NCBI RefSeq assembly: GCF_053078305.1
Contig: NZ_CP166875.1
Direction: 5' to 3' (one strand)
Length of the DNA: 64,000 nt
Origin: a plasmid
In this document: in pieces, positions 19,736 through 37,731 of the stretch
Numbering within the stretch: position 1 is the stretch's first letter
How the letters are laid out: each line of letters opens with the position of its first letter
Made by a program: the position numbers and the translations under genes
Notes under the pieces: generated by a model
What the model was told of the DNA's origin: nothing
What the model saw: the letters and a program-made list of their open reading frames with translations, nothing else
Database searches by the model: none

Positions 19736-22575
19736 ATGAAGTCTATGTGATTGCCGGTGGTGAGTGGTTGCGCAATAACCTGAACGCCATTGCCGCTTTT
19801 ATGGGGACCCGGACGTGGGATTCCATTGAAAAAATTGCGCTCACATTATCTGTTCTCGCAGTGGCTGTGATGTGGGTACAACGGCACAACGTGATGGATT
19901 TGCTGGGCTGGGTGGCCGTGTTTGTGCTTATCAGCCTGCTGGTTAATGTCCGCACATCGGTGCAGATTATTGATAACAGTGACCTGGTTAAGGTTCACCG
20001 GGTGGACAATGTGCCGGTCGGTCTGGCGATGCCACTTTCACTGACGACCCGTATCGGGCATGCGATGGTGGCCGGCTATGAGATGGTGTTCGCTCAGCCG
20101 GACAGCGCCACCTACAGCAAGACAGGCATGCTGTTCGGGGCGAACCTGATTGTGAAAAGCACCGATTTCCTGTCCCGGAATCCGGAAATCATCAATCTGT
20201 TTCAGGACTACGTCCAGAACTGCGTGCTGGGTGATATTTACCTGAACCATAAATACACGCTGGAAGACCTGATGGCCTCCTCTGACCCGTACACCATAAT
20301 CTTTTCTCAGCCCAGCCCTTTACGTCAGGTGCCGAATAATAATTACAGTTTTCTGCAAAGCTCAGAGCCGTTTGTGTCCTGTAAGGACGCATCCGTCGGA
20401 CTGAAGGATAAGCTGAATTTTGATACGAATACCGGAGGCAAGACCTGGAATTATTATGTGCAGCAGATATTTGGCGGCAGGCCGGACCCTGACCTGTTAT
20501 TCAGACAACTGGTGAGTGACAGTTACAGTTATTTCTACGGCTCCAGCCAGTCTGCCAGCCAGATTATGCGCCAGAACGTCACCATGAATGCCCTGAAAGA
20601 GGGTATCACCAGTAATGCGGCCCGTAACGGTGATACCGCCAGCCTGGTGAATCTGGCCACCACCTCATCGATGGAGAAACAGCGTCTGGCACATGTCTCC
20701 ATTGGTCATGTGCTGATGCGAAACCTGCCGATGGTACAGACCATTCTGGTGGGCATTACTATTGGTATCTTCCCGCTCCTGGTGCTGGCTGCGGTCTTCA
20801 ACAAACTGACGCTGTCCGTCCTGAAAGGCTATGTGTTTGCCCTGATGTGGTTCCAGACTTGGCCGTTGCTGTATGCCATCCTGAACAGTGCCATGACATT
20901 CTATGCGAAGCAGAACGGGGCTCCGGTCGTGCTCTCTGAACTCTCTCAGATACAGCTGAAATACTCCGACCTGGCATCAACCGCAGGTTATCTTTCAGCA
21001 ATGATCCCCCCTCTGTCATGGATGATGGTACGAGGCCTTGGTGCCGGATTTTCCAGCGTATACAGCCACTTTGCGTCTTCTTCCATCACGCCAACCGCCA
21101 GTGCGGCAGGCAGTGTGGTTGACGGTAATTACTCCTACGGCAACATGCAGACGAATAACGTGAACGGCTTCAGCTGGAGCACCAACAGCACCACGTCATT
21201 TGGTCAGATGACGCACCAGACCGGTAGTGGTGCAACCGCCACGCAGACCCGTGACGGCAGTATGGTGATGGACGCCAGTGGGGCAATGTCCCGTTTGCCG
21301 GTTGGTATTAATGCAACGCGTCAGATTGCAGCAGCGCAACAGGAAATGGCCCGGGAGTCGATGAATAAGGCGGAAAGTGCCCTGCATGGTTTCAGCAGCA
21401 GTATTGCCAGTGCCTGGAACACACTCAGCCAGTTTGGCTCTAACCGGGGAAGCAGTGATTCAGTCACCAGTGGCGCTGACAGCACGATGAGCGCGCAGGA
21501 CTCCATGATGGCCAGCCGTATGCGCAGTGCGGTGGAAAGCTATGCGAAGGCGCATAATATCAGCGATGAGCAGGCGACAAGAGAACTGGCATCCAGAAGT
21601 ACGAGAGGTTCTGCGGGGATGTATGGTGATGCTCATGCTGAATGGGGGGTTAAACCTAAAATTCTTGGTGTTGGTGGTGGCGCAGGTGTCAGAGGTGGTG
21701 GTAGGACAAGTATTGACTGGAATGATGAGGATGCGCATCAGGCCAGCAGTGGTTCACGGGCCAGCCATGATGCCCGTCATGATATTGATGCCAGAGCTAC
21801 ACAAGACTTTAAAGAAGCAAGCGATTACTTTACCAGTCGCAAGGTCAGTGAATCCGGCAGCCATACTGACAATAATGCCGATTCCAGGGTGGACCAGCTT
21901 TCTGCAGCCCTGAACTCAGCGAAACAGAGTTACGACCAGTACACGACGAATATGACCCGCAGCCATGAATATGCTGAAATGGCCTCCCGTACTGAAAGCA
22001 TGAGTGGGCAGATGAGTGAAGACCTGTCACAACAGTTTGCACAGTATGTGATGAAACACGCGCCGCAGGATGCAGAAGCTATTCTGACAAACACCAGTTC
22101 ACCGGAGATTGCAGAACGTCGTCGGGCAATGGCCTGGTCTTTTGTTCAGGAACAGGTACAGCCTGGTGTTGATAACGCCTGGCGTGAATCCCGTGGCGAT
22201 ATCGGTAAAGGAATGGAGAGCGTACCTTCGGGCGGTGGCAGCCAGGATATTATTGCAGACCATCAGGGGCATCAGGGTATTATTGAGCAAAGAACGCAGG
22301 ACAGTAATATCCGTAACGATGTGAAGCAGCAGGTTGATAATATGGTCACAGAATATCGGGGCAATATCGGGGATACTCAGAACAGCATCCACGGCGAGGA
22401 AAATATTGTAAGAGGGCAGTATTCTGAACTGCAAAATCACCATAAAACAGAGGCATTATCTCAGAATAATAAATATAATGAAGAAAAATCAGCTCAGGAA
22501 GGAATGCCCGGTGCTGACAGCCCACAGGAACTTATGAACAGGGCAAAAGAGTATCAGGATAAGTATAAGCAATAA
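19732..22575 (+). CDS. traG: TraG mating-pair stabilisation/entry-exclusion target (VirB6-like N-terminal domain)
   Basis: 947 aa, polytopic N-terminus, F TraG is 938 aa. Confidence 0.9.
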   Translation: MNEVYVIAGGEWLRNNLNAIAAFMGTRTWDSIEKIALTLSVLAVAVMWVQRHNVMDLLGWVAVFVLISLLVNVRTSVQIIDNSDLVKVHRVDNVPVGLAMPLSLTTRIGHAMVAGYEMVFAQPDSATYSKTGMLFGANLIVKSTDFLSRNPEIINLFQDYVQNCVLGDIYLNHKYTLEDLMASSDPYTIIFSQPSPLRQVPNNNYSFLQSSEPFVSCKDASVGLKDKLNFDTNTGGKTWNYYVQQIFGGRPDPDLLFRQLVSDSYSYFYGSSQSASQIMRQNVTMNALKEGITSNAARNGDTASLVNLATTSSMEKQRLAHVSIGHVLMRNLPMVQTILVGITIGIFPLLVLAAVFNKLTLSVLKGYVFALMWFQTWPLLYAILNSAMTFYAKQNGAPVVLSELSQIQLKYSDLASTAGYLSAMIPPLSWMMVRGLGAGFSSVYSHFASSSITPTASAAGSVVDGNYSYGNMQTNNVNGFSWSTNSTTSFGQMTHQTGSGATATQTRDGSMVMDASGAMSRLPVGINATRQIAAAQQEMARESMNKAESALHGFSSSIASAWNTLSQFGSNRGSSDSVTSGADSTMSAQDSMMASRMRSAVESYAKAHNISDEQATRELASRSTRGSAGMYGDAHAEWGVKPKILGVGGGAGVRGGGRTSIDWNDEDAHQASSGSRASHDARHDIDARATQDFKEASDYFTSRKVSESGSHTDNNADSRVDQLSAALNSAKQSYDQYTTNMTRSHEYAEMASRTESMSGQMSEDLSQQFAQYVMKHAPQDAEAILTNTSSPEIAERRRAMAWSFVQEQVQPGVDNAWRESRGDIGKGMESVPSGGGSQDIIADHQGHQGIIEQRTQDSNIRNDVKQQVDNMVTEYRGNIGDTQNSIHGEENIVRGQYSELQNHHKTEALSQNNKYNEEKSAQEGMPGADSPQELMNRAKEYQDKYKQ

Positions 22576-22590: not shown

Positions 22591-23094
22591 ATGATAATGA
22601 AAAATTTAGCTCATGTTGCTCTGATAACTGTGATACAGCTCATTGCCTGTAATCTGGCTGATTGGGGGGGCGCTGAGACAGTTTTTATCCTGTGCTTTAT
22701 TGTACTATGGCAGGGATTGTTTATATGGTTGTTTTCTCAAATACGAAAAAAACGGCATGTGTCGGATGAGTTTAAATTCAGTAAAGGCGTTTGGTATATA
22801 CTGATGCCAGTATCTTCTTTATTCTCTCCGTTATTAAGCCTGATGACTTTTATCATTGGTACACTATACGAATTAAGGCGAGTTTGTGGTTGTGTAAGTG
22901 TAAGAGAATGGATGCAATCTCAGGTAAATGAAAACACCAATGAAGAATTGCATCTGGATTTTGATGATGTGAATTTTGATTATGTGGATTTTTATCGTAC
23001 TAATCCGGCAACAGGATTAGCTATGCATGGAGGATTTGATTCAGCAGGAAATACTTTTGGGACTTGTTGGCAGGACTATGATGATAGGCGATAA
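22591..23094 (+). CDS. traS: TraS entry exclusion inner-membrane protein
   Basis: hydrophobic ORF between traG and traT. Confidence 0.6.
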
Positions 23095-23125
23095 GAAAAC
23101 TGTAGCTTGTAATAAAGGTAATTTG

Positions 23126-23857
23126 ATGAAAACAAAAAAATTGATGATGGTTACCCTGGTCAGTTCCACTCTGGTCCTTTCAGGGTGTGGTGCGATGAGC
23201 ACAGCAATCAAGAAGCGTAATCTTGAAGTCAAAACTCAGATGAGTGAAACCATCTGGCTGGAGCCTTCCAGTGAACGCACCGTTTTCCTGCAAATCAAAA
23301 ACACATCTGACAAGGATATGAGTGGATTGCAGGCAAAAATCAGTGATGCCGTTAAAGCCAAAGGCTACCAGGTTGTGACCTCACCTGACAAGGCATACTA
23401 CTGGATCCAGGCCAATGTCCTGAAGGCAGACAAAATGGATTTGCGGGAGTCCCAGACCTGGCTGAACAGCGGTTATGAAGGTGCCATTGCCGGTGCAGCA
23501 TTGGGCACCGGCATCACAGGATATAACTCCAGCTCTGCCGGTGCGGCGCTGGGTGTAGGGATTGCCACAGGGTTGATTGGTATGGCTGCCGATGCAATGG
23601 TGGAGGATATCAACTACACCATGATCACGGATGTGCAGATTGCAGAGCGGACAACATCTAAAGTCAGAACTGATAATGTTGCTGCTCTCCGCCAGGGAAC
23701 CTCCGGTGCAAAAGTGCAGACCAGCACATCAACCGGAAATCAACATAAATACCAGACCCGTGTGGTATCTAATGCCAACAAGGTTAACCTGAAATTTGAA
23801 GAAGCGAAGCCTGTACTGGAAGACCAGCTGGCTAAATCCATCGCGAACATCCTGTAA
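23126..23857 (+). CDS. traT: TraT surface exclusion outer-membrane lipoprotein
   Basis: starts [38 protein letters not shown], lipobox, matches F TraT. Confidence 0.9.
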
Positions 23858-23916
23858 ATTACCCATCCGGCCCGGACAGATTGTACCGGGCCGATATTCC
23901 TGCCCCGGATGAATAC

Positions 23917-24177
23917 ATGAACCGTGCAGAATCTCGTCTCTCGCAGGTACTCTTTCTGCTGGGCTATGACAGTGAAAAGTATCCTGAGCATGTATGTCGG
24001 GAGTTATTAAAAGAACTTTACCGGTTTGCTGATGCAACCGGAGATTCTGAACTGGCCATAGCCTGCCAGAGATACCTGACAGCACTGGAACCGTTCTCTG
24101 CATATGAGATCGGCGTAAGCGCAACAGAATATCTTCCTGTGAGTGAATATCCGACCGGACGTCGCAGAAGAAAATAG
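23917..24177 (+). CDS. hypothetical small protein
   Basis: ORF in traT-traD islet, followed immediately by conserved structured element. Confidence 0.35.
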   Translation: MNRAESRLSQVLFLLGYDSEKYPEHVCRELLKELYRFADATGDSELAIACQRYLTALEPFSAYEIGVSATEYLPVSEYPTGRRRRK

Positions 24178-24249
24178 CTGACGCCTCGCGTTGCTCGTTG
24201 TCCAACCCCGGGAAGTAACAAAATAAATTTTGTCACTTCCCGGCGTTTC
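24178..24249 (+). repeat. conserved ~72-bp structured element (copy 1)
   Basis: CTGACGCCTCGCGTTGCTCGTTGTCCAACCCCGGG + 12-bp stem hairpin + CCCGGCGTTTC; second copy at 36456-36530. Confidence 0.6.
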
Positions 24250-24344
24250 CGAAATAAATATGAGAACACTGAACGGTTGTGCAAATTCTTTGTGCGACCG
24301 TGAAGTGTTGCCGGCGAAGCCGGAAGCTTCCGGAGAAAGTCATT

Positions 24345-25076
24345 ATGACATCAGACAATATCGCTGAATATGTTGGTGAGAATAATCAATTTACTGAGAA
24401 GCCTGTAACTGAATACTCCCCGGTGATACAGGATAATACAGCGACCACAAAAGATTATCTGTACAGCAATAATATTGATACTGACCTTTTAGTGGTTATC
24501 GGAGGGCTTATTGTTATATTGTTTCTCATGATGCTTGTCATGTACTTTATTAATTCTCTCAGGCATAAGGAATTAACTGAAATACTGACAAAAATATCTT
24601 TTCCTGAGAAATCCGGGAGCAATCCGCTTAAGCCGGAAGAGGGCCGCTGTAATTTGTTGTCCCTGTGTGTGCTGGCCCCGGTATTCTGTACCCCCAAAAA
24701 ACTGGCAGAAGTCTCCAGACAGATCATCGTGACCAGTGCGAAGGAAATTGCCTGGACGCCCGGGAGTAGCCGTATTGATGGTGAGCAGGAAGAAAATATT
24801 ACCTGGTCTCTGTCGTCACAGACTCATGCCGATAAATACGATCTCATCAATAAAACATCCCGTGTTTCTCCTGACAGTGGCCACTTTTATGAACCGGGCA
24901 CGGCTCTGGATTATCGTGAGCGGGTACGCCTTTTTGTTCAGATCCAGTATTCACACGAGAGTGACTGGTCTGAAATATTGCGCCTGACTGATATCGTGCT
25001 GGAAAAAGTTTCTTCCGGCAGACCAGCAGGCGGCTATCACCACCGGTATACAGGGTATACATGGTTTGTTCTGTGA
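24345..25076 (+). CDS. hypothetical single-pass membrane protein
   Basis: 244 aa ORF with one TM helix (LLVVIGGLIVILFLMMLVMYFI), no recognised family. Confidence 0.45.
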   Translation: MTSDNIAEYVGENNQFTEKPVTEYSPVIQDNTATTKDYLYSNNIDTDLLVVIGGLIVILFLMMLVMYFINSLRHKELTEILTKISFPEKSGSNPLKPEEGRCNLLSLCVLAPVFCTPKKLAEVSRQIIVTSAKEIAWTPGSSRIDGEQEENITWSLSSQTHADKYDLINKTSRVSPDSGHFYEPGTALDYRERVRLFVQIQYSHESDWSEILRLTDIVLEKVSSGRPAGGYHHRYTGYTWFVL

Positions 25077-25131: not shown

Positions 25132-27330
25132 ATGAGTTTTAACGCAAAGGATATGACCCAGGGCGGTCAGATTGCGTCCATGCGTATCCGCATGTTCAGC
25201 CAGATCGCCAATATCATGCTTTACTGCCTGTTTATTTTTTTCTGGATCCTCGTTGGTCTGGTTTTATGGGTAAAAATAAGCTGGCAGACGTTTGTGAACG
25301 GCTGTATTTACTGGTGGTGCACCACGCTGGAAGGCATGCGGGATTTAATCAGGTCCCAGCCGGTCTATGAGATCCAGTATTACGGCAAAACCTTCCGGAT
25401 GAACGCGGCTCAGGTACTGCATGATAAATACATGATCTGGTGCGGTGAGCAGCTATGGTCTGCATTCGTTCTGGCGTCTGTCGTGGCCCTGGTTATCTGC
25501 CTGATCACCTTCTTTGTTGTCTCCTGGATTCTGGGGCGTCAGGGTAAACAGCAGAGTGAAAATGAAGTCACAGGTGGTCGTCAGCTGACTGACAATCCGA
25601 AAGAGGTTGCCAGGATGCTGAAAAAAGACGGCAAGGACTCCGATATCCGGATTGGCGATCTGCCGATTATCCGGGATTCTGAAATCCAGAATTTCTGTCT
25701 GCACGGCACGGTCGGGGCCGGTAAGTCGGAAGTTATCCGTCGTCTGGCCAACTACGCCCGTCAGCGCGGTGATATGGTGGTGATTTATGACCGATCAGGG
25801 GAATTTGTTAAAAGTTACTATGACCCGTCCATCGATAATATCCTGAATCCGCTGGATGCCCGCTGTGCCGCCTGGGATTTGTGGAAGGAGTGCCTGACAC
25901 AGCCGGATTTTGATAATACGGCAAATACCCTGATCCCGATGGGCACAAAAGAAGACCCGTTCTGGCAGGGCTCAGGACGCACCATTTTTGCGGAAGCGGC
26001 GTACCTGATGCGTAATGACCCCAACCGCAGCTACAGCAAACTGGTGGATACACTACTCTCCATCAAAATTGAAAAACTGCGTACCTTCCTGCGTAACTCA
26101 CCGGCGGCCAACCTGGTGGAAGAGAAAATCGAGAAAACGGCGATTTCCATCCGTGCTGTGCTGACCAACTACGTGAAAGCCATCCGTTACCTGCAGGGGA
26201 TTGAGCATAATGGTGAGTCCTTCACCATCCGTGACTGGATGCGGGGTGTCCGTGAAGATAAGAAAAACGGCTGGCTGTTTATTTCGTCGAATGCCGACAC
26301 CCATGCTTCCCTGAAACCGGTGATCTCCATGTGGCTGTCCATCGCCATTCGTGGCCTGATGGCGATGGGGGAGAACCGTAACCGTCGTGTGTGGTTCTTC
26401 TGTGATGAGTTACCCACGTTACACAAACTGCCGGACCTGGTGGAGATCCTGCCGGAAGCCCGTAAGTTCGGTGGCTGTTATGTGTTCGGTATCCAGTCCT
26501 ATGCCCAGCTGGAAGATATCTACGGTGAGAAATCGGCAGCCTCGCTGTTTGACGTCATGAACACCCGTGCCTTTTTCCGTTCCCCCAGCCATAAGATTGC
26601 AGAGTTCGCTGCCGGTGAAATTGGTGAGAAAGAGCACCTGAAAGCCAGCGAGCAGTATTCCTACGGTGCTGATCCGGTACGTGACGGGGTATCGACCGGT
26701 AAGGATATGGAGCGCCAGACGCTGGTCAGTTATTCCGACATTCAGTCTCTGCCGGATCTGACCTGTTATGTCACCCTGCCCGGACCGTATCCGGCAGTAA
26801 AACTCTCCCTGAAATATCAGGCACGACCGAAGGTTGCTCCGGAGTTTATTCCGCGTGACATCAATCCTGAAATGGAGAACCGTCTGAGTGCCGTACTTGC
26901 CGCAAGGGAAGCAGAAGGTCGTCAGATGGCCAGCCTCTTCGAACCGGATGTCCCGGAGGTTGTTTCCGGAGAAGACGTGACTCAGGCTGAACAGCCGCAA
27001 CAGCCGCAACAGCCGCAACAGCCGCAACAGCCGCAACAGCCGCAACAGCCGGTGTCTCCTGCCATCAACGATAAGAAGTCAGATGCAGGTGTGAATGTTC
27101 CGGCAGGGGGGATCGAGCAGGAGCTGAAAATGAAACCGGAAGAAGAGATGGAACAGCAACTGCCACCCGGGATCAGTGAATCCGGTGAAGTGGTGGATAT
27201 GGCCGTTTATGAGGCATGGCAACGGGAGCAGAATCCGGATATCCAGCAGCAGATGCAGCGCCGTGAAGAGGTGAATATCAACGTGCACCGGGAGCGCGGG
27301 GAGGATGTTGAGCCGGGAGATGATTTCTGA
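25132..27330 (+). CDS. traD: TraD type IV coupling protein
   Basis: 732 aa, Walker [10 protein letters not shown]-terminal QPQ repeats as in F TraD. Confidence 0.95.
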
Positions 27331-30300
27331 TGTTGAGTTTCAGCGTTGTTAAATCGGCAGGCAGTGCCGGAAACTATTACACCGACAAGGATAATTACTA
27401 TGTGCTGGGTAGCATGGGGGAACGCTGGGCGGGCAAGGGGGCTGAACAGCTTGGGCTGCAGGGCAGTGTTGATAAGGATGTCTTTACCCGTCTTCTGGAG
27501 GGGAAGCTGCCGGACGGGGCGGATTTAAGCCGTATGCAGGATGGCAGTAATAAGCATCGTCCCGGCTATGACCTGACCTTCTCCGCCCCCAAAAGTGTCT
27601 CCATGATGGCCATGTTAGGTGGCGATAAGCGCCTGATTGATGCACATAATCAGGCCGTGGATTTTGCTGTCCGTCAGGTGGAGGCGCTGGCTTCCACACG
27701 GGTGATGACGGACGGACAGTCAGAAACGGTACTGACCGGTAATCTGGTGATGGCACTCTTTAACCACGACACCAGTCGCGATCAGGACCCACAGTTACAC
27801 ACGCATGCGGTGGTGGCTAATGTCACGCAGCATAACGGCGAATGGAAGACACTGAGCAGTGATAAAGTGGGGAAAACCGGTTTTTCCGAGAACGTGCTCG
27901 CGAACCGTATTGCGTTCGGGAAAATATATCAGAGTGAGTTACGTCAGCGCGTTGAGGCGCTGGGCTATGAAACTGAAGTGGTGGGTAAGCACGGTATGTG
28001 GGAGATGCCGGGCGTACCGGTGGAGGCCTTTTCCGGACGCTCACAGGCTATCCGGGAGGCCGTCGGGGAAGACGCCTCGCTGAAATCCCGGGATGTGGCG
28101 GCACTGGATACGCGAAAATCCAAACAGCACGTCGATCCTGAAGTCAGAATGGCTGAATGGATGCAGACGCTGAAGGAAACCGGGTTCGACATCCGGGCGT
28201 ATCGTGACGCGGCAGACCAACGGGCGGAGACCCGCACGCAGACACCCGGACCCGCTTCACAGGACGGGCCGGATGTGCAGCAGGCGGTGACACAGGCCAT
28301 TGCCGGATTAAGTGAACGAAAAGTGCAGTTCACGTACACGGACGTGCTGGCCAGGACGGTCGGCATACTGCCGCCGGAAGCCGGTGTGATTGAGCGGGCG
28401 CGTGCCGGTATCGATGAGGCCATCAGCCGTGAGCAGCTTATCCCCCTCGACCGTGAGAAGGGGCTGTTCACGTCCGGGATTCATGTGCTCGATGAGCTGT
28501 CCGTCCGGGCACTCAGTCGTGACATCATGAAACAGAACCGGGTGACTGTACATCCGGAGAAAAGTGTTCCCCGGACGGCCGGTTACAGCGATGCGGTCAG
28601 TGTTCTGGCACAGGATCGCCCGTCGCTGGCCATTGTGTCCGGGCAGGGCGGTGCAGCCGGGCAGCGTGAGCGGGTGGCTGAACTGGTCATGATGGCCCGG
28701 GAGCAGGGGCGGGAGGTGCAGATTATTGCCGCTGACCGTCGCTCACAGATGAACCTGAAGCAGGATGAACGGCTGTCCGGTGAACTGATAACCGGACGTC
28801 GTCAGCTGCTGGAAGGCATGCCCTTCACGCCGGGCAGTACCGTTATCGTCGACCAGGGCGAAAAACTCTCCCTGAAAGAGACGTTAACCCTGCTGGACGG
28901 TGCCGCACGTCATAACGTACAGGTCCTGATAACCGACAGCGGGCAGCGAACCGGTACAGGCAGTGCGCTGATGGCCATGAAGGATGCCGGGGTGAACATA
29001 TATCGCTGGCAGGGGGGAGAGCAGCGACCGGCAACCATCATCTGTGAACCGGACCGTAATGTCCGCTATGCCCGGCTGGCCGGAGATTTTGCGGCCAGCG
29101 TGAAAGCCGGAGAAGAGAGCGTGGCACAGGTCAGCGGAGTACGGGAACAGGCCATACTGACACAGGCCATTCGCAGTGAACTGAAAACGCAGGGCGTACT
29201 CGGGCAGAGGGAGGTGACCATGACGGTGCTGTCACCGGTCTGGCTGGACAGCCGGAGTCGTTATCTGCGGGATATGTACCGCCCGGGGATGGTGATGGAG
29301 CAGTGGAACCCGGAGACACGCAGTCATGACCGCTATGTTATCGACCGGGTGACAGCGCAGAGTCACAGCCTGACCCTGCGGGATGCGCAGGGCGAAACGC
29401 AGGTGGTGCGTATATCCTCCCTGGACAGCAGCTGGTCGTTGTTCCGGCCGGAAAAAATACCGGTGGCAGACGGCGAGCGTCTGAGGGTGACAGGGAAAAT
29501 TCCCGGACTCCGCGTCTCCGGCGGTGACCGCCTGCAGGTGGCATCCGTCAGTGAAGATGCGATGACGGTTGTTGTGCCGGGGCGGGCTGAACCGGCCACC
29601 CTGCCTGTGAGCGATTCACCGTTCACGGCACTGAAGCTGGAGAGCGGCTGGGTGGAAACGCCCGGGCATTCCGTCAGTGACAGTGCGAAGGTTTTTGCCT
29701 CCGTCACACAGATGGCAATGGACAACGCCACCCTGAACGGTCTGGCCCGCAGCGGTCGTGATGTCCGGCTGTATTCCTCACTGGATGAAACCCGTACTGC
29801 GGAAAAACTTGCCCGTCACCCCTCCTTTACGGTGGTTTCTGAGCAGATAAAGGCGCGTGCCGGTGAGACATTGCTGGAAACCGCTATCAGTCTGCAGAAA
29901 GCCGGGCTTCACACGCCGGCACAGCAGGCCATTCATCTGGCCCTTCCTGTGCTGGAAAGTAAAAACCTGGCCTTCAGCATGGTGGACCTGCTGACAGAGG
30001 CGAAGTCGTTTGCTGCAGAAGGAACCAGTTTTACTGAACTGGGAGGGGAAATCAATGCGCAGATAAAACGCGGTGATTTGCTGTATGTGGATGTGGCAAA
30101 AGGCTATGGCACAGGCCTGCTGGTTTCCCGTGCGTCGTATGAGGCAGAAAAGAGCATTCTTCGCCATATTCTCGAAGGTAAGGAGGCGGTCACGCCGCTG
30201 ATGGAGAGGGTACCCGGCGAACTCATGGAGACACTGACGTCGGGGCAGCGTGCCGCCACCCGCATGATACTGGAAACGTCCGACCGTTTCACGGTGGTGC

Positions 30301-32600
30301 AGGGTTATGCCGGTGTGGGTAAGACCACACAGTTCCGGGCGGTGATGTCAGCCGTGAAGATGCTGCCGGAGAGTGAGCGTCCCCGTGTCGTGGGGCTGGG
30401 CCCCACGCACCGTGCGGTCGGTGAGATGCGCAGCGCCGGCGTGGATGCACAGACACTGGCATCCTTTCTGCATGACACGCAGCTGCAGCAGCGCAGCGGA
30501 GAAACGCCGGATTTCAGCAACACGCTGTTCCTGCTCGATGAGAGCTCTATGGTGGGCAATACCGACATGGCACGGGCATACGCCCTGATTGCGGCCGGTG
30601 GTGGTCGTGCCGTGGCCAGCGGTGACACGGACCAGCTGCAGGCTATCGCGCCCGGTCAGCCTTTCCGTCTCCAGCAGACGCGCAGTGCTGCCGATGTGGT
30701 CATCATGAAGGAGATTGTGCGTCAGACGCCGGAACTGCGGGAGGCGGTATACAGCCTGATTAACCGGGATGTGGAAAGGGCACTGTCCGGGCTTGAGAGT
30801 GTGAAACCGTCTCAGGTGCCACGTCAGGAGGGCGCATGGGCACCGGAGCACTCCGTGACGGAGTTCAGTCACAGCCAGGAAGCGAAACTGGCAGAAGCGC
30901 AGCAGAAGGCGATGCTGAAAGGCGAGGCTTTTCCGGATGTCCCCATGACACTGTATGAAGCCATTGTCCGCGACTATACCGGCAGAACACCGGAAGCACG
31001 GGAGCAGACGCTGATTGTCACGCACCTGAATGAGGACCGGCGCGTACTGAACAGCATGATTCATGATGTACGGGAAAAGGCCGGTGAGCTGGGGAAAGAG
31101 CAGGTCATGGTGCCTGTCCTGAACACAGCGAATATACGTGACGGAGAGCTGCGTCGTCTCTCCACCTGGGAGACACATCGGGACGCACTTGCCCTGGTGG
31201 ATAATGTGTATCACCGGATTGCCGGTATCAGTAAGGATGACGGGCTGATAACCCTGGAGGATGCGGAAGGTAACACGCGGCTGATTTCGCCCCGGGAGGC
31301 GGTGGCTGAAGGTGTCACACTGTACACCCCGGACACCATCCGGGTGGGGACCGGTGACCGGATGCGCTTCACGAAGAGTGACCGGGAGCGCGGCTATGTG
31401 GCCAACAGCGTCTGGACGGTGATGGCGGTTTCCGGTGACAGTGTCACGCTTTCTGACGGACAGCAGACCCGGGTGATTCGCCCCGGCCAGGAGCAGGCAG
31501 AGCAACATATTGACCTGGCCTATGCCATCACCGCTCACGGTGCGCAGGGGGCGAGTGAAACCTTTGCCATCGCGCTTGAAGGCACGGAAGGTAACCGGAA
31601 ACAGATGGCCGGCTTTGAGTCAGCCTATGTGGCCCTGTCGCGTATGAAGCAGCATGTGCAGGTGTACACCGATAACCGTCAGGGCTGGACGGATGCCATC
31701 AGCAAAGCCGTACAGAAAGGAACGGCCCATGATGTGCTGGAGCCGGGGGCTGACCGGGAGGTCATGAATGCAGAGCGGTTGTTCAGTACGGCACGGGAGC
31801 TGCGGGATGTGGCAGCTGGCCGTGCTGTTCTCCGCCAGGCGGGACTGGCCGGGGGCGACAGTCCGGCACGGTTTATTGCACCGGGGCGCAAATATCCGCA
31901 GCCGTATGTGGCCCTGCCGGCTTTTGACCGTAACGGCAAGTCCGCCGGTATCTGGCTGAACCCACTGACCACGGATGACGGAAACGGGCTGCGGGGATTC
32001 AGTGGTGAAGGCCGGGTGAAAGGCAGCGGGGATGCGCAGTTTGTGGCCCTGCAGGGCAGCCGTAACGGCGAGAGCCTGCTGGCTGATAATATGCAGGATG
32101 GTGTCTGGATTGCCCGTGATAACCCCGACAGCGGTGTGGTGGTGAGAATCGCCGGTGAAGGTCGTCCGTGGAATCCCGGTGCCATCACCGGTGGCCGCGT
32201 GTGGGGGGATATCCCGGACAACAGCGTCCAGCCGGGGGCCGGAAACGGTGAGCCGGTCACGGCAGAGGTGCTGGCACAGCGGCAGGCTGAAGAGGACATC
32301 CGTCGTGAAACGGAACGCCGTGCGGATGAGATTGTCAGAAAAATGGCAGAGGAAAAACCTGACCAGCCGGATGGTAAAACAGAGCAGGCTGTCAGGGCTA
32401 TTGCCGGGCAGGAGCAGGACAGGGCTTCGTCATCAGAACGGGAAACTGCGCTGCCGGAAAGTGTGCTGCGTGAGTCTCAACGGGTGCAGGACGCTGTCCG
32501 GGAGGTTGCCCGGGAAAATCTGCTGCAGGAGCGACTTCAGCAGATGGAGCGGGATATGGTCCGTGACCTGCAGAAAGAGAAAACCCTGGGCGGAGACTGA
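27330..32600 (+). CDS. traI: TraI relaxase/helicase
   Basis: 1756 aa (F TraI is 1756 aa); N-terminal relaxase with HTH motif region, helicase Walker A GYAGVGKT. Confidence 0.95.
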   Translation: MLSFSVVKSAGSAGNYYTDKDNYYVLGSMGERWAGKGAEQLGLQGSVDKDVFTRLLEGKLPDGADLSRMQDGSNKHRPGYDLTFSAPKSVSMMAMLGGDKRLIDAHNQAVDFAVRQVEALASTRVMTDGQSETVLTGNLVMALFNHDTSRDQDPQLHTHAVVANVTQHNGEWKTLSSDKVGKTGFSENVLANRIAFGKIYQSELRQRVEALGYETEVVGKHGMWEMPGVPVEAFSGRSQAIREAVGEDASLKSRDVAALDTRKSKQHVDPEVRMAEWMQTLKETGFDIRAYRDAADQRAETRTQTPGPASQDGPDVQQAVTQAIAGLSERKVQFTYTDVLARTVGILPPEAGVIERARAGIDEAISREQLIPLDREKGLFTSGIHVLDELSVRALSRDIMKQNRVTVHPEKSVPRTAGYSDAVSVLAQDRPSLAIVSGQGGAAGQRERVAELVMMAREQGREVQIIAADRRSQMNLKQDERLSGELITGRRQLLEGMPFTPGSTVIVDQGEKLSLKETLTLLDGAARHNVQVLITDSGQRTGTGSALMAMKDAGVNIYRWQGGEQRPATIICEPDRNVRYARLAGDFAASVKAGEESVAQVSGVREQAILTQAIRSELKTQGVLGQREVTMTVLSPVWLDSRSRYLRDMYRPGMVMEQWNPETRSHDRYVIDRVTAQSHSLTLRDAQGETQVVRISSLDSSWSLFRPEKIPVADGERLRVTGKIPGLRVSGGDRLQVASVSEDAMTVVVPGRAEPATLPVSDSPFTALKLESGWVETPGHSVSDSAKVFASVTQMAMDNATLNGLARSGRDVRLYSSLDETRTAEKLARHPSFTVVSEQIKARAGETLLETAISLQKAGLHTPAQQAIHLALPVLESKNLAFSMVDLLTEAKSFAAEGTSFTELGGEINAQIKRGDLLYVDVAKGYGTGLLVSRASYEAEKSILRHILEGKEAVTPLMERVPGELMETLTSGQRAATRMILETSDRFTVVQGYAGVGKTTQFRAVMSAVKMLPESERPRVVGLGPTHRAVGEMRSAGVDAQTLASFLHDTQLQQRSGETPDFSNTLFLLDESSMVGNTDMARAYALIAAGGGRAVASGDTDQLQAIAPGQPFRLQQTRSAADVVIMKEIVRQTPELREAVYSLINRDVERALSGLESVKPSQVPRQEGAWAPEHSVTEFSHSQEAKLAEAQQKAMLKGEAFPDVPMTLYEAIVRDYTGRTPEAREQTLIVTHLNEDRRVLNSMIHDVREKAGELGKEQVMVPVLNTANIRDGELRRLSTWETHRDALALVDNVYHRIAGISKDDGLITLEDAEGNTRLISPREAVAEGVTLYTPDTIRVGTGDRMRFTKSDRERGYVANSVWTVMAVSGDSVTLSDGQQTRVIRPGQEQAEQHIDLAYAITAHGAQGASETFAIALEGTEGNRKQMAGFESAYVALSRMKQHVQVYTDNRQGWTDAISKAVQKGTAHDVLEPGADREVMNAERLFSTARELRDVAAGRAVLRQAGLAGGDSPARFIAPGRKYPQPYVALPAFDRNGKSAGIWLNPLTTDDGNGLRGFSGEGRVKGSGDAQFVALQGSRNGESLLADNMQDGVWIARDNPDSGVVVRIAGEGRPWNPGAITGGRVWGDIPDNSVQPGAGNGEPVTAEVLAQRQAEEDIRRETERRADEIVRKMAEEKPDQPDGKTEQAVRAIAGQEQDRASSSERETALPESVLRESQRVQDAVREVARENLLQERLQQMERDMVRDLQKEKTLGGD

Positions 32601-33852: not shown

Positions 33853-34410
33853 ATGACAGAGCAGAAACGGCCAGTACTGACACTGAAACGAAGAACCGAC
33901 GTGGAAACACCGACCCGGAGCCGGAAAACCATCATCAATGTCACCACGCCACCAAAATGGAAGGTGAAAAAGCAGAAACTGGCGGAGAAGGCTGCCCGGG
34001 AAGCAGAGCTGGCGGCGAAGAAAGCACAGGCCAGACAGGCGCTGTCCATTTATCTGACGCTGCCCTCGCTGGATGAGGCGGTGAACACTCTGAAACCCTG
34101 GTGGCCGGGATTGTTTGACGGTAACACGCCCAGGCTTCTTGCCTGCGGTATCCGGGAGGTTTTACTGGATGAGGTGTCTCAGCGAAATATCCCGCTCTCT
34201 CATAAAAAACTCAGCCGGGCGCTGAAAGCCATCACCCGTTCGGAAAGTTATCTGTGCGCAATGAAAGCCGGCGCCTGCCGCTATGATACGGAAGGCTATG
34301 TGACAGAACATATCACACAGGAAGAAGAACAGTATGCGCAGGCGCGCCTGGAAAAGGTGCGCAGACAGAACCGGATCAAGGATGAGCTGCGGGCGATCCT
34401 GGCTGAATAA
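33853..34410 (+). CDS. finO: FinO RNA chaperone (fertility inhibition)
   Basis: 185 aa, basic N-terminus, matches remembered FinO. Confidence 0.9.
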
Positions 34411-34766: not shown

Positions 34767-35511
34767 AAATAACCCCCGTCGCGGAGCTCCGGGGGATCAG
34801 GCTTATATGGCAGATCGTTATTATTATTATTATAGTGGTGTAAGAAGGAGTTGCCCTGTCTTTCAAACGGACATCACAGAATTAACATATTTCACCTCCC
34901 GGGTAAGCCAGCAGGGATAAAAAATGTGATGAATTTCAAGAAGCAGGAGGTGACAGTGGCATGCATAACAGCAGGGTTATCCGGTGAATCTGACAGACAG
35001 CCGGGCTGTATTCGCGGCAGGATAAAGAAAAACCGGGAGATGACTCTCCCGGTCCGTCTTATCGCTAATCCCCTGAGCAGGGCATGTATGACTTATCTAT
35101 GACCATTATATTCAGCGCCACATCCGGTAGCCTGCGATATAACACAGTTATCCTGTCAGTAAGAGCAGGTATGATGAATACACGGAGATTAAAAATATAA
35201 TCTCCGTCACATGTTACCCCCGGAAACCGGTAACGCCGTCACGGGAAAGACGTGACAGAAAAAGCAGCCTCCGTTACTCCAGGTATCAGAAGGCTGAATA
35301 ATGCATGAGACTTTCTTTCTTATGTGTCTGGTCAGGCTGGCTGACCAGCGTTTTTAGTAACACATAGCCATATGTGTATTAAGCCACCTCATCTTATTTT
35401 GTTGAATTGATCACAATTCAACGGTTTATTTTTGGCGTGATGTGTGAGCCGTTATTCATCCCGGCATGGAATTCATGCAATAACGAAAAGTAATCAGTGA
35501 CGGAGAGTAAA

Positions 35512-35973
35512 ATGAAGAAATATATACCACTGGTATTATTTGTTTTTTCATGTCAGGTATTTTCTGCTGATATTCATGGACGGGTTGTGCGTGTTCTGGA
35601 TGGCGATACCATTGACGTTATGTTATCTCAGCATCCGGTGCGTGTCCGTCTTGTTAATATTGATGCACCTGAAAAGAAACAGGACTATGGCCGGTGGTCT
35701 GAAAAAATAATGAAATCTCTGGTTGCGGGAAAAACGGTTACTGTCACATATTTTCAGCGAGATCGTTATGGTCGTATTCTCGGGCAGGTTTATGCACCAG
35801 ACGGAATGAATGTTAATCAGTTTATGGTCCGTGCAGGCGCTGCATGGGTTTATGAGCAGTACAACACCGATCCTGTTCTTCCCGTCCTGCAGGGAGAAGC
35901 ACGACAGCAGAAACGTGGTCTGTGGGCAGACAGCGCTCCTGTTCCGCCCTGGGTATGGCGCTCACGGAAATAA
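35512..35973 (+). CDS. secreted thermonuclease-family (SNase-like) nuclease
   Basis: signal peptide; RVVRVLDGDTIDV...VRLVNIDAPE motif typical of staphylococcal-nuclease fold. Confidence 0.75.
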   Translation: MKKYIPLVLFVFSCQVFSADIHGRVVRVLDGDTIDVMLSQHPVRVRLVNIDAPEKKQDYGRWSEKIMKSLVAGKTVTVTYFQRDRYGRILGQVYAPDGMNVNQFMVRAGAAWVYEQYNTDPVLPVLQGEARQQKRGLWADSAPVPPWVWRSRK

Positions 35974-36060: not shown

Positions 36061-36459
36061 ATGAAAGGTGAACAAATGAACTATCAGGCAGTATCAGAAT
36101 TAATCACATCGTCTAATCATAATGTTCTTATTGTGGGGGACTCAGCTTCTGAAGTTGATAGCTTTTTAAATAAACTGAATATTACTGATTATAAGTATTA
36201 TGATTTCAGCCAGATTTACAGTTGTTCTGACAGAACATTAAATGATTATGCGGTTATTTTTATCAGGGATGCACTGAACGCCAGTGAGCATATTATTATT
36301 TTTAATTGTACAGGATGGCCTGATTTGAATAATGAATCTGCCGTCATGCAGTTTGCCAGAGTGGCACGAAAATCAGGAAAACAACTGATAGTCGCAGTAA
36401 GAGAACAGGATATGAAAAAAATGGAAGCAGAGTTTGGAAGGATCATAAAAATCCACTGA
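36061..36459 (+). CDS. hypothetical protein with alternating strand/helix pattern
   Basis: 132 aa AT-rich ORF; followed immediately by second copy of structured element. Confidence 0.4.
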   Translation: MKGEQMNYQAVSELITSSNHNVLIVGDSASEVDSFLNKLNITDYKYYDFSQIYSCSDRTLNDYAVIFIRDALNASEHIIIFNCTGWPDLNNESAVMQFARVARKSGKQLIVAVREQDMKKMEAEFGRIIKIH

Positions 36460-36530
36460 CGCCTTCGCGTTGCTCAGTTGTCCAACCCCGGGGACGGGAA
36501 AAAGCAAGTTTTCCCCGCCCCCGGCGTTTC
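36456..36530 (+). repeat. conserved ~72-bp structured element (copy 2)
   Basis: same flanks as 24178-24249 with a different but self-complementary stem. Confidence 0.6.
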
Positions 36531-36681
36531 TGTAGTGAAAAGCGGGAAATGGAGGGAATGGTCAGTAACAGGGAATGTGGTATTATCGCGGCGGGTGTCT
36601 GAGCCTTTCTGGTTCAGGCAAGACGCAGGTACTAGAAATGCGAAGACCCCACTTGTTAATCCATTAACTCGTGAGGCCTGC

Positions 36682-36888
36682 ATGAAGTACTTGAACACTA
36701 CTGATTGTAGCCTCTTCCTTGCAGAGAGGTCAAAGTTTATGACGAAATATGCCCTTATCGGGTTGCTCGCCGTGTGCGCCACGGTGTTGTGTTTTTCACT
36801 GATATTCAGGGAACGGTTATGTGAGCTGAATATTCACAGGGGAAATACAGTGGTGCAGGTAACTCTGGCCTACGAAGCACGGAAGTAA
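36682..36888 (+). CDS. srnB: SrnB/PndA-type Hok-family type I toxin
   Basis: MKYLNTTDCSLFLAERSKFMTKYALIGLLAVCATVLCFSLIFRERLCELNIHRGNTVVQVTLAYEARK matches remembered SrnB. Confidence 0.8.
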   Translation: MKYLNTTDCSLFLAERSKFMTKYALIGLLAVCATVLCFSLIFRERLCELNIHRGNTVVQVTLAYEARK

Positions 36889-37494: not shown

Positions 37495-37585
37495 CACGCC
37501 ATAAGGTGGCAGGGAACTGGTTCTGATGTGGATGTACAGGAGCCAGAAAAGTGAAAACCCCGATAATCTTCTTTAACTTTGGCGA
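37495..37585 (-). ncRNA. copA: CopA antisense RNA (approximate bounds)
   Basis: region between copB and tap matches remembered R100 copA target sequence; bounds estimated. Confidence 0.55.
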
Positions 37586-37656
37586 GTGAGAAAGATTACC
37601 GGGGCCATCTAAAAACCGTATAGCCAACAATTCAGCTATGCGGGGAGTATAGTTAT

Positions 37657-37731
37657 ATGCCCGGAAAAGTTCAAGACTTCTTTCTGTGCTCGCTCCTTCT
37701 GCGCATTGTAAGTGCAGGATGGTGTGACTGA
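37657..37731 (+). CDS. tap: Tap (RepA6) leader peptide
   Basis: 24-codon [27 protein letters not shown] ending just after repA1 GTG start. Confidence 0.6.

What the first reader, a model, noticed from the sequence alone, without database searches (positions are those of the whole stretch)
24178..24249. Recurring ~72-bp structured element immediately after the stop codon of two unrelated accessory ORFs
The sequence CTGACGCC(T)CGCGTTGCTC(A/G)TTGTCCAACCCCGGG, then a hairpin, then CCCGGCGTTTC occurs at 24178-24249 and again at 36456-36530. Each copy begins within a few bases of the stop codon of a hypothetical ORF. The flanks are conserved but the central stems differ in sequence while remaining self-complementary (12-14 bp). 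That pattern of conserved flanks with a covarying stem argues for a selected secondary structure. It could be a cassette-boundary or recombination site, a structured 3' UTR or sRNA, or a miniature mobile element end. The - strand carries a GTTGGAC motif resembling an integron core site, but no integrase is nearby.
Basis: seen in the sequence. Interest (0 to 1): 0.6.

Follow-up and report, generated by a model that had tools for sequence, protein, structure and literature searches.

The report
Strand-specific hairpin element of F plasmids
The two 72-76 bp repeats are copies of a widespread, unannotated structured element of F-type conjugative plasmids; it folds on the DNA strand that is transferred during mating, not on the mRNA strand, so it is probably a single-stranded-DNA signal rather than a 3' UTR or integron site.

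Summary
Two copies (24178-24250, 36456-36531) share sharp conserved edges (CTGACGCC...GCGTTTC) around different, self-complementary stems, and they follow unrelated ORFs.

The window is an F-like plasmid. Copy 1 lies between traT and traD. Copy 2 lies after finO, before hok/sok and the IncFII replicon.

The element occurs in at least 5000 PLSDB plasmids and in 3031 of 5426 complete E. coli genomes, almost always on plasmids. It keeps both positions in Pantoea plasmids whose Tra proteins are about 40% identical.

The stem covaries: 11 of 19 pairs show compensatory changes and 96.8% of cells are paired. The wobble pairs are one-sided: 50 G.U/G.T on the minus strand against 2 on the plus strand. 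All 28 variants fold better on the minus strand.

That strand is antisense to the tra genes. It carries the F nic motif in a close relative, so it is the transferred T-strand.

Neither strand has a U-tract. The element has no Rfam match, no attC features and no Frpo similarity.

Best guess (about 0.4): a T-strand single-stranded-DNA signal, possibly a priming site for complementary-strand synthesis. The main rival is an antisense RNA element. No function has been shown.

The parts
24178..24250 (-). Copy 1 of the element (subtype A), between traT/ORF98 and ORF265/traD. The folding strand is the minus strand.
   Evidence: Covariance model hit of 78.3 bits, E 1.4e-22. Sequence. Fold energies: RNA -35.3 (minus) against -30.0 (plus) kcal/mol; DNA -23.6 against -18.0 kcal/mol.
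24204..24247 (-). Long hairpin of copy 1. It has a 3-bp AAC/GTT base, a G x G mismatch, a 16-bp stem (24208-24223 with 24228-24243) and a 4-nt loop.
   Evidence: The stem has one G.U pair on the minus strand, which is an A.C mismatch on the plus strand.
24197..24203 (-). Conserved single-stranded linker: GGACAAC on the minus strand, GTTGTCC on the plus strand.
   Evidence: Unchanged in the nine BLAST-derived plasmid copies, which were not selected on this motif. It recurs as GGACAA in divergent copies found by the model.
24178..24196 (-). 3' module on the folding strand: a short, weak, variable hairpin ending in the conserved GGCGTCAG.
   Evidence: The stem sequence and register differ between subtypes, but the 3' end (G/A)CGTCAG is conserved.
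36456..36531 (-). Copy 2 of the element (subtype B), between ORF132 and the hok/sok locus and IncFII replicon.
   Evidence: Covariance model hit of 98.2 bits, E 7e-29. Fold energies: RNA -42.7 (minus) against -31.1 (plus) kcal/mol; DNA -24.7 against -17.6 kcal/mol.
36484..36528 (-). Long hairpin of copy 2. It has the AAC/GTT base, a G x G mismatch, a 16-bp stem (36488-36503 with 36509-36524) and a 5-nt loop.
   Evidence: The stem has two G.U pairs on the minus strand, which are two mismatches on the plus strand.
36477..36483 (-). Conserved linker of copy 2 (GGACAAC on the minus strand).
36456..36476 (-). 3' module of copy 2 (CTGAGCAACGCGAAGGCGTCAG on the minus strand). The plus-strand TGA at 36457-36459 serves as the stop codon of ORF 36061-36459.

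Best explanation
The two repeats belong to a conserved cis-acting family of F-like (MOBF/MPF-F, IncFII-type) plasmids. The functional form is a fold of the strand antisense to the tra genes, which is the strand nicked at oriT and transferred (the T-strand).

Read 5' to 3' on that strand, the element has four parts:
- nnAAC;
- a 16-23 bp hairpin;
- GTT-GGACAA as a single-stranded linker;
- a short variable hairpin, ending in (G)CGTCAG.

I propose that it acts as single-stranded DNA during conjugation. After the T-strand enters the recipient, the hairpins stay free of SSB and present the conserved single-stranded motifs to a host or plasmid protein. The most likely role is a single-strand initiation (priming) site for complementary-strand synthesis.

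Synthesis from a primer laid at copy 2 would run straight into hok/nuc-copB-repA-oriR. Synthesis from copy 1 would run into traD-traI. These operons would therefore become double-stranded soon after entry.

The abundance of G.T pairs on the T-strand would have a second effect. It weakens the mirror hairpin in the plus-strand mRNA, so that transcription of the tra operon is not terminated.

Shown: the family, its sharp edges, its covariation, its strand bias, its fixed positions and orientation, and the identity of that strand with the nicked strand.

Inferred: that the active molecule is DNA rather than RNA, that the process is priming, and the argument about avoiding mRNA termination.
For: Selected structure
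- On a model-based alignment of 28 distinct copies, 96.8% of cells are paired and 11 of 19 pairs show compensatory changes. None of 500 shuffles reaches this, and registers slid by 1-3 columns give 44-67% paired.

Strand bias
- The minus strand has 463 Watson-Crick, 50 G.U and 17 non-standard cells. The plus strand has 463, 2 and 65.
- All 28 unique variants fold better on the minus strand, by 9.1 kcal/mol on average.
- Four more divergent copies fold better on that strand by 8-13 kcal/mol.
- The bias is not mutational. The plus strand of the tra region is G-rich (skew +0.06 to +0.15). That is the opposite of what C-to-T decay of the minus strand would produce.

T-strand identity
- The F nic motif GGGGTGT|GGTGCTTTTGGTGG lies on the strand antisense to the tra genes in the near-identical relative CP057156.1.

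Orientation and position
- Every copy on a given plasmid has the same orientation.
- The positions are conserved down to about 40% Tra protein identity. In Pantoea locus L039, one copy lies between traG and traD and one lies between finO and repA.
- Copy B always sits 0.2-1.4 kb upstream of copB/repA.

Against a self-contained RNA gene
- No promoter or terminator pattern is attached to the element on either strand, and the flanks are unrelated between subtypes.

Internal calibration
- The Frpo-like single-stranded-DNA promoters in this same window show the same kind of bias toward their template (T) strand: -67 against -53 and -60 against -49 kcal/mol.

Precedent
- The conjugative element ICEBs1 carries an orientation-specific single-strand origin just after its relaxase gene. 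It also has a second, redundant one, and both matter for establishment in transconjugants (PMC4595007).
Against: - No experiment and no sequence similarity links the element to any known priming signal. It shares no motif with the five published Frpo/ssi sequences.
- It has no conserved CTG for DnaG.
- Its stem is too short (about 20 bp) to hold -35 and -10 boxes as Frpo does.
- In F-like plasmids nearly all backbone genes are co-oriented. 'T-strand' and 'antisense to local transcription' therefore cannot be separated by orientation.
- G.U-rich stems (about 10% of pairs) are more typical of RNA than of DNA.
- The element is intact in non-conjugative pO157-like and Shigella pINV plasmids. These copies are nearly identical to those on conjugative plasmids, so this test has little power.
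- Some F-like plasmids lack the copy upstream of traD (L011 and L019).
- The model-based alignment was fitted to the minus strand and the sequences are related, so cell counts overstate the number of independent events.
Confidence: 0.4

Rival explanations
1. The element is an antisense RNA module. The minus strand is transcribed, by read-through from Sok, CopA or internal antisense promoters, or from weak local promoters. The two-hairpin RNA then acts as a processing or stability element, as a protein-binding site (for example FinO/ProQ-type), or as a barrier that keeps antisense transcription out of the tra operon.
For: - G.U pairs make up about 10% of stem pairs, and all of them are on the minus strand. 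This is classic behaviour for a structured RNA.
- The layout of two hairpins with a conserved single-stranded linker resembles FinP or RepX-type RNAs (from memory, and PMC8136791).
- Antisense RNAs are known inside F-like tra regions. Rfam families AS-traI, AS-traG and AS-pc02 all hit this window.
- Weak -35/-10-like hexamers can be read on the minus strand to the right of some subtypes (my reading of the sequences; not flagged by the scan).
Against: - There is no conserved promoter. The right flanks are unrelated between subtypes, and the promoter scan finds none on the minus strand next to either copy.
- There is no U-tract after either hairpin on the minus strand, so no intrinsic terminator.
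- Nothing in Rfam 15 matches, even at E up to 1.
- An RNA with no fixed 5' or 3' end is hard to reconcile with the very sharp edges of conservation.
Confidence: 0.25
2. The element is a plus-strand mRNA feature. It would be a partial transcription terminator or insulator, or a 3'-end stabiliser, that ends the strong traS/traT transcripts before traD and shields copB/repA from read-through out of the tra/finO region.
For: - The position fits. In the IncFII(K) plasmid pBIC1a, expression falls from 282 RPKM (traT) to 8 and 7 (next ORF and traD) (PMC6286996).
- The plus-strand hairpin is still stable (-30 and -31 kcal/mol). It is followed by CGUUUC(U), which is a poor U-tract.
- Insulating the replicon from upstream transcription would be useful.
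Against: - Selection for a plus-strand RNA hairpin should leave G.U pairs on the plus strand. Only 2 are seen, against 50 on the other strand, and the plus strand carries 65 non-pairing cells.
- In the commonest E. coli subtype, the centre of the plus-strand stem is an internal loop.
- The terminator scan does not call the element on either strand.
- A separate hairpin directly after traT, which does have a T.G pair on the plus strand, is a better candidate for the traT terminator.
Confidence: 0.12
3. The element is a recombination or cassette junction, or the relic of a small mobile element. It would be a site at which accessory genes are exchanged, by a site-specific recombinase or by homologous recombination at a conserved island, or a MITE-like insertion.
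For: - Homology between plasmids starts and stops exactly at the element's edges, while the genes on both sides vary: traT, ORF98, DUF2726, ORF132, a PIN-domain gene, a pyocin immunity gene and dsbA on the left; orf265, hok, PLD nuclease and copB on the right.
- Three unrelated ORFs end at or inside the first four bases.
- In Buttiauxella locus L031, two copies bracket a block of four small genes.
- In Erwinia dacicola locus L019, the site before traD keeps only CTGAC...CGTTTTTC, without the hairpin.
Against: - No recombinase co-occurs with the element.
- There are no target-site duplications, and the ends share only 5 bp (ACGCC/GGCGT) as an inverted repeat.
- Copy number is fixed at 1-3 per plasmid, at fixed backbone positions, across genera. 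This is not the behaviour of a mobile repeat.
- Neither recombination junctions nor double-stranded sites explain a one-sided wobble-pair bias.
- attC criteria are not met (see the membership test).
Confidence: 0.1

Closest known systems
Frpo / ssi single-stranded-DNA promoters and priming signals of F, ColIb-P9 and related plasmids (Masai & Arai 1997; Nomura 1991; sequences in PMC11541004 supplementary file 4)
   Same: - Both are cis elements of conjugative plasmids that fold on the transferred strand.
- Both are orientation-fixed and intergenic, upstream of operons.
- Both show the same bias of G.T pairs toward the T-strand. This was measured for the Frpo-like regions of this window.
   Different: - Frpo elements are about 300-330 nt, lie in the leading region, and carry -35/-10 boxes in a long stem.
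- This element is 72-76 nt, with a stem of about 20 bp and no promoter boxes.
- It lies at the far (late-entering) end of the plasmid.
- It shares none of their motifs.
Single-strand origins (sso) of rolling-circle plasmids, and sso1 of ICEBs1 (PMC4595007)
   Same: - Both are small, orientation-specific, hairpin-forming sites on the displaced or transferred strand.
- ICEBs1 sso1 lies just downstream of the relaxase gene, and a second redundant site exists. This parallels the two copies that bracket traD-traI-finO here.
   Different: - There is no sequence similarity.
- The sso types have defined RNA polymerase or primosome requirements, and conserved RSB/CS-6 motifs that are absent here.
- Function is untested for this element.
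Integron attC sites
   Same: - Both follow ORFs.
- Both are imperfect palindromes whose bottom strand (opposite to the ORF) is the folding strand.
- Both contain RYYYAAC (GTCCAAC) near the 5' side and GTT near the 3' side.
   Different: - The stem here is continuous, without extrahelical bases or an unpaired central spacer.
- Only AAC/GTT of the R box pairs.
- The primary sequence is conserved across genera.
- There is an extra conserved module of about 25 nt.
- There are no cassette arrays and no linked integrase.
Rho-independent terminators and REP-type intercistronic hairpins
   Same: Both are GC-rich hairpins in intergenic positions at the ends of genes.
   Different: - No U-tract follows the hairpin on either strand.
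- The fold is selected on the non-mRNA strand.
- The element is plasmid-restricted, with 1-3 copies, whereas REP elements occur in hundreds of chromosomal copies.
FinP/RepX-type two-hairpin antisense RNAs
   Same: Both are about 75 nt, with two stem-loops and a short single-stranded spacer, and both are encoded antisense to plasmid genes.
   Different: - FinP and RepX have their own promoter and a terminator hairpin with a U tail, and they overlap a target ribosome-binding site.
- This element has none of these features.

Membership tests
Integron attC recombination site | Paired R''/R' boxes (RYYYAAC with GTTRRRY) at the base of the folded bottom strand | tested here: not met
   GTCCAAC fits R''. 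The 3' partner, however, is GTTTC(C/T)G, so only AAC/GTT pairs.
Integron attC recombination site | Extrahelical bases in the L box and an unpaired central spacer, which impose strand choice | tested here: not met
   The stem is a continuous 16-bp helix with a single G x G mismatch next to AAC/GTT and no bulged bases.
Integron attC recombination site | Structure conserved but sequence not conserved; arrays of cassettes next to intI/attI | tested here: not met
   The flank sequences are conserved across the Escherichia, Klebsiella and Enterobacter plasmid copies found by BLAST, and the same layout recurs in Erwinia and Pantoea. Plasmids carry 1-3 copies at fixed backbone positions. No integrase search was run in the window.
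Intrinsic (Rho-independent) terminator | GC-rich hairpin followed immediately by a U-tract on the transcribed strand | tested here: not met
   The scan calls no terminator at either copy on either strand. The tails are CGUUUCC/CGUUUCU on the plus strand and GGUUGGACAAC on the minus strand.
Frpo-type single-stranded-DNA promoter | Long stem (about 300 nt element) that reconstitutes -35 and -10 boxes; similarity to known Frpo/ssi sequences | tested here: not met
   The stem is about 20 bp with no promoter hexamers. The motifs TTGGACAA and TTGTCCAA are absent from all listed Frpo/ssi sequences. The covariance model gives no significant hit (weakest E about 0.6 or worse) in the window's Frpo-like regions.
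Single-strand initiation signal (ssi / primosome assembly site / sso) | Orientation-dependent priming of complementary-strand synthesis on single-stranded DNA | not testable with these tools
   Only indirect support is available: the element folds on the T-strand, its orientation is fixed, and its size of about 70 nt is similar to phiX-type sites (size comparison from memory).
Single-strand initiation signal, G4/DnaG type | Conserved 5'-CTG-3' start site next to the hairpin | tested here: not met
   CTG follows the hairpin only in some subtype B copies (GGACAACTGAGC). Subtypes A and B' have GGACAACGA.
Any described RNA family (Rfam 15) | Covariance-model match | tested here: not met
   No hit at the element at gathering score in the window, nor at E up to 1 in two loci that carry it.
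MITE / small mobile repeat (including REP) | Terminal inverted repeats, target-site duplication, many dispersed copies | tested here: not met
   Only a 5-bp ACGCC/GGCGT repeat at the ends, and no duplications at the junctions. In E. coli genomes, 5074 of 5102 places are on plasmids and the median is 1 per genome.

The most novel reading that the evidence does not exclude
F-type plasmids, which are present in more than half of sequenced E. coli, carry a previously unrecognised class of short structured signals on the transferred strand. These lie outside the leading region, at the entrances to the traD-traI module and to the IncFII replicon. They would organise what happens to the incoming single strand: priming of the complementary strand, or recruitment of a specific host or plasmid protein. 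They have also evolved G.T-rich stems, so that the mirror hairpin does not terminate tra transcription.
Probability: 0.35. Interest if true: 0.75.

Novelty: new variant of a known kind. Interest (0 to 1): 0.55.

Why it matters
How the 60-100 kb single strand of an F-type plasmid is converted to duplex DNA in the recipient is still poorly understood beyond the Frpo promoters of the leading region. F plasmids encode no primase.

A conserved, orientation-fixed element that folds on the T-strand, placed just before the replicon and the relaxase/coupling-protein module, would be a concrete candidate for the missing priming or recognition sites. It is directly testable.

The element is carried by the main vehicles of antibiotic resistance and virulence in Enterobacteriaceae: at least 5000 PLSDB plasmids and 56% of complete E. 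coli genomes. It is unannotated everywhere I looked.

Even if its function proves different, it is a useful marker of F-backbone module boundaries. It also illustrates that the direction of wobble pairs can assign a hairpin to a strand.

Tried and rejected
1. Shared 3' end of homologous genes. Rejected: the ORFs are unrelated and homology starts at the element's edge.

2. Known RNA family. Rejected: no Rfam hit.

3. Phage origin. Rejected: no match in 50,697 phage records.

4. attC site. Rejected on structure.

5. Canonical terminator on either strand. Not called by the scan.

6. Frpo/ssi homology. No shared motifs.

7. Mutational (deamination) origin of the strand bias. Disfavoured by the positive GC skew of the plus strand.
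   - A single sequence's strand asymmetry proves nothing. Random 70-nt windows differ by +/-10 kcal/mol in both directions.
   - The case therefore rests on the comparative counts.

8. Extra or divergent copies in the window. None found with the covariance model with filters off or with a motif-plus-hairpin scan.

9. A closing stem between the two ends (ACGCC/GGCGT). Not conserved in divergent copies.

10. Resemblances recalled from memory. These were the Tn3 inverted repeat (CTGACGC...TCAGT), the ColE1 origin (GGAAAAACGCCAGCAACGCGGCC), the R388 nic region (TTGTCT) and the pBBR1 repeat (GGTGTCCAACCGG).
    - They are confined to one subtype or are very short.
    - They could not be tested: the RSF1010 record was not in the collection.
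    - I treat them as coincidence.

11. Literature. Eight full-text searches and eight papers read gave no description of this element. Older subscription papers on the traT terminator (Ogata 1982; Jalajakumari 1987; Yoshioka 1990) could not be read and may mention the inverted repeat after traT.

Full report
**What the window is**

The window is part of an F-like conjugative plasmid with its tra genes on the plus strand.
- traG is at 19732-22575, traS follows, and traT is at 23027-23857 (NCBIfam PRK13731, E 1e-156).
- traD is at 25132-27330 and traI at 27330-32600.
- finO is at 33853-34410, and a thermonuclease-like gene is at 35497-35973.
- A hok/sok locus is at 36593-36749, CopA is at 37549-37639 on the minus strand, and IncFII repA is at 37712-38581.

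Copy 1 of the reported element lies between traT and traD. It comes directly after a small hypothetical ORF (23881-24177) and before another hypothetical ORF (24279-25076). Copy 2 lies after a third hypothetical ORF (36061-36459), about 30 bp upstream of the hok promoter region.

**Check of the observation**

- The conserved 5' flank is expected zero times by chance.
- The two upstream ORFs are unrelated and have no family assignment.
- Copy 1 begins right after the TAG stop. In copy 2 the ORF uses the TGA inside the element's CTGACG.
- A covariance model built later scores the copies at 98.2 and 78.3 bits and finds no third copy. An independent motif-plus-hairpin scan agrees.

**Distribution**

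The organisms are mainly Escherichia, Klebsiella, Salmonella and Shigella, and also Enterobacter, Citrobacter, Yersinia, Serratia and Pantoea. About 80% of the hit plasmids are typed as conjugative.

Among 5426 complete E. coli genomes, 3031 carry the element. Of 5102 places, 5074 are on plasmids, and the median is one per genome. No phage record has it.

A pattern scan of one genome per species returned 32 loci.
- About 28 are real copies. All are on contigs with F-like tra genes, IncFII repA, or both. They come from Pantoea, Erwinia, Kluyvera, Kosakonia, Lelliottia, Buttiauxella, Klebsiella, Citrobacter and others.
- Some real copies are on obvious contaminant contigs.
- The remaining four are chance matches without the hairpin.

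**Anatomy and edges**

Alignments show that similarity between plasmids begins at CTGACGCC and ends at GCGTTTC(C/T). Both flanks are unrelated beyond those points.
- The gene on the left can be traT (plus its own hairpin), ORF98, a DUF2726 gene, ORF132, a gene of a PIN-domain pair, a pyocin immunity gene or dsbA.
- The gene on the right can be orf265/traD, hok/sok, a PLD-family nuclease, or copB directly.
- The element is sometimes flush with a stop codon: ORF98, ORF132 and DUF2726, the last two using the element's own TGA. In other plasmids it lies 22-160 nt downstream. Adjacency to a stop codon is therefore not a defining property.

**Structure and strand**

Both copies fold significantly better than shuffles on either strand. 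The minus strand is better, both as RNA (-35.3 against -30.0 and -42.7 against -31.1 kcal/mol) and as DNA (-23.6 against -18.0 and -24.7 against -17.6).

One sequence proves little, because random 70-nt windows of this plasmid differ between strands by +/-10 kcal/mol in both directions. The comparative data are decisive.
- All 28 unique variants fold better on the minus strand, by 9.1 kcal/mol on average.
- On a model-based alignment of 28 distinct copies, 96.8% of stem cells are standard pairs.
- In that alignment 11 of 19 pairs show changes on both sides. None of 500 shuffles reaches any of the measures, and registers slid by 1-3 columns give only 44-67% pairing.
- The same columns read on the two strands give 463 Watson-Crick, 50 G.U and 17 non-pairs on the minus strand. 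They give 463, 2 and 65 on the plus strand.
- Wobble pairs appear at 13 of the 19 pair positions, so this is not one inherited event.
- A mutational explanation (C-to-T decay of the minus strand) is not supported. The plus strand of the tra region is G-rich, which points the other way.

By contrast, the separate hairpin right after traT in other plasmids (GGAGGCTGGTC/GACCGGCCTCC) has its wobble pair on the plus strand. That is what a real mRNA terminator should show.

**Wider family**

The model also detects divergent copies with entirely different stems but the same layout on the same strand. Read 5' to 3', the layout is:
- nnAA(C/T);
- a 19-23 bp hairpin;
- (G/A)TT-GGACAA;
- a short hairpin closed by GAC/GTC (GCC/GGC, GCCC/GGGC or ATCCGGC/GCCGGAT);
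- (G/A)CGTCAG.

Four of these divergent copies, plus the weaker copies in L007 and L041, fold better on the model strand (by 8-13, 9 and 4 kcal/mol). The one in L029 is a perfect palindrome with no strand preference.

In Pantoea locus L039, whose Tra proteins are 37-50% identical to those of the window, one divergent copy lies between traG and traD. A canonical copy lies between finO and repA. The two positions are therefore old.

Other divergent copies lie elsewhere, for example between a resolvase gene and parA in Kluyvera locus L022. Every copy on a given contig has the same orientation.

The 3' short hairpin is heterogeneous, and it is weak in the E. coli subtypes.

Not all F-like plasmids keep the copy before traD (L011 and L019). 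In L019 the site retains only CTGAC...CGTTTTTC.

**Which strand is it?**

In CP057156.1, which matches copy 1 at 100%, the F nic motif GGGGTGT|GGTGCTTTTGGTGG lies on the strand antisense to traM-traR. The leading-region genes share the tra orientation.

The folding strand of the element is therefore the nicked, transferred strand. It is equally the template strand of essentially all neighbouring genes, so orientation alone cannot separate 'T-strand DNA' from 'antisense RNA'.

As an internal calibration, the Frpo-like regions of a second, inverted leading region in this window (about 48.3-48.5 kb and 53.7-53.9 kb) also fold 11-14 kcal/mol better on their template strand. Elements that act as T-strand DNA therefore do carry this signature.

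**What it is not**

- It matches no Rfam family.
- It is not a canonical terminator on either strand.
- It is not an attC site. It has no extrahelical bases and no central spacer, only AAC/GTT pairs at the base, and its sequence is conserved.
- It is not Frpo. It is far too short, has no promoter boxes and shares no motifs.
- It is not a MITE or REP. It has no duplications, only a 5-bp terminal repeat, and fixed positions with 1-3 copies.

**Most likely mechanism, and how sure I am**

I regard the following as established (about 0.9): this is a conserved, selected, strand-specific structured cis element of F-like plasmids, and it folds on the strand antisense to the tra genes.

Its function is inferred. 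I favour a role as single-stranded DNA on the incoming T-strand (about 0.4), with priming of complementary-strand synthesis as the specific guess (about 0.2). Several observations fit this view.
- The element is restricted to F-type plasmids.
- Its orientation is fixed.
- It lacks a promoter or terminator of its own.
- It has conserved single-stranded motifs between hairpins, as protein-recognised single-stranded-DNA sites usually do.
- It sits just 'upstream' of the replicon and of traD-traI. DNA synthesis from a primer at the element would run into those operons.
- ICEBs1 offers a precedent. It has an orientation-specific single-strand origin right after its relaxase gene, plus a redundant second site.

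The surplus of G.T pairs can be read as a compromise. It keeps the hairpin on the DNA strand and spoils it on the mRNA, so that tra transcription is not stopped.

The main rival is a minus-strand RNA module (0.25). It is favoured by the frequency of G.U pairs, but weakened by the absence of any conserved promoter or terminator.

A plus-strand terminator or insulator (0.12) fits the position, and it fits the drop in expression after traT in pBIC1a. It is contradicted by the direction of the wobble pairs.

A recombination or cassette junction (0.1) describes the mosaic flanks but explains neither the strand bias nor the fixed positions.

**Novelty**

I found no annotation under the element in any record examined, apart from the ends of neighbouring CDSs. 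I also found no description of it in the searchable literature. Early papers on traT probably noted an inverted repeat there, but I could not read them.

The family-level picture appears to be new. It comprises two or more copies per plasmid, ancient positional conservation, and folding on the transferred strand. It is closest in kind to ssi, sso and Frpo elements, but differs from all of them in sequence and architecture.

**Caveats**

- The model-based alignment was fitted to the minus strand.
- The sequences are related, so counts are not independent events.
- The pattern used for the species scan forced CTGACGCC and GTTGTCCAAC to be present. Their invariance is only partly informative. It is, however, also seen in the nine BLAST-derived copies and, as GGACAA, in the model-derived divergent copies.

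Noticed in passing
window 48321-48520, 48620-48688, 53701-53900, 53912-53980: A 69-nt direct repeat (91% identical) matches the 3' tails of published Frpo/ssi single-stranded-DNA promoters. The adjacent 200-nt stretches fold 11-14 kcal/mol better as plus-strand DNA. That strand is the template for the psiA/psiB/ssb-like genes lying on the minus strand at about 49.5-53.6 kb. This looks like a second leading region with Frpo-like elements, inverted relative to the tra operon.
   Followed up: partly
window 39031-39270 (minus strand); repeats 39152-39415 and 41034-41297: There is strongly structured minus-strand DNA 450-690 bp downstream of IncFII repA. From memory, this is where R1/R100-type origins have the primase 'G-site' (ssiA). 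Part of it is duplicated 1.9 kb away at 95% identity.
   Followed up: partly
window 23867-23893: A hairpin (CGGCCCGG...CCGGGCCG) lies 10 nt after the traT stop codon. Other plasmids carry a different hairpin at the same place, with a T.G pair on the plus strand. This is probably the real traT mRNA terminator, and it is distinct from the element studied.
   Followed up: partly
window 24276-24300: A small hairpin, GGTTGTGCAAATTCTTTGTGCGACC, lies just downstream of copy 1. It is conserved from E. coli to Erwinia dacicola upstream of traD or orf265. It gave a weak plus-strand model hit (16 bits). Its function is unknown.
   Followed up: no
window 9482-9624 and 11366-11543: A direct repeat of about 130-160 nt, 95-97% identical, lies inside the tra region. 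It brackets a minus-strand ORF (10183-10974). It may be an insertion or duplication between tra genes (families D3 and D7).
   Followed up: no
window 26974-27060: A run of 9-nt CAGCCGCAA repeats (Gln-Pro-Gln) lies near the 3' end of traD. This is the known variable QQP tract of TraD. It gives a spurious, very stable minus-strand fold.
   Followed up: no
window 36593-36749 (+) and 49268-49439 (-): There are two hok/sok-type loci (Rfam sok, 94.6 and 87.2 bits) in opposite orientations, one next to copy 2 and one in the inverted leading region. Rfam antisense RNAs AS-traG, AS-traI and AS-pc02 are also present.
   Followed up: no
L031 4529-4604 and 7050-7125 (Buttiauxella MAG contig): Two copies of the element, of different subtypes, lie 2.5 kb apart between dsbA/finO and repA. 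They bracket four small ORFs of unknown function. This is the only cassette-like arrangement I saw.
   Followed up: partly
L044 2504-2579 (Shigella flexneri plasmid of pINV type): This copy has a G-to-A change in the purine arm of the folding strand. It creates an A.C mismatch and costs about 4 kcal/mol. This is a single anecdote of possible relaxed constraint.
   Followed up: no
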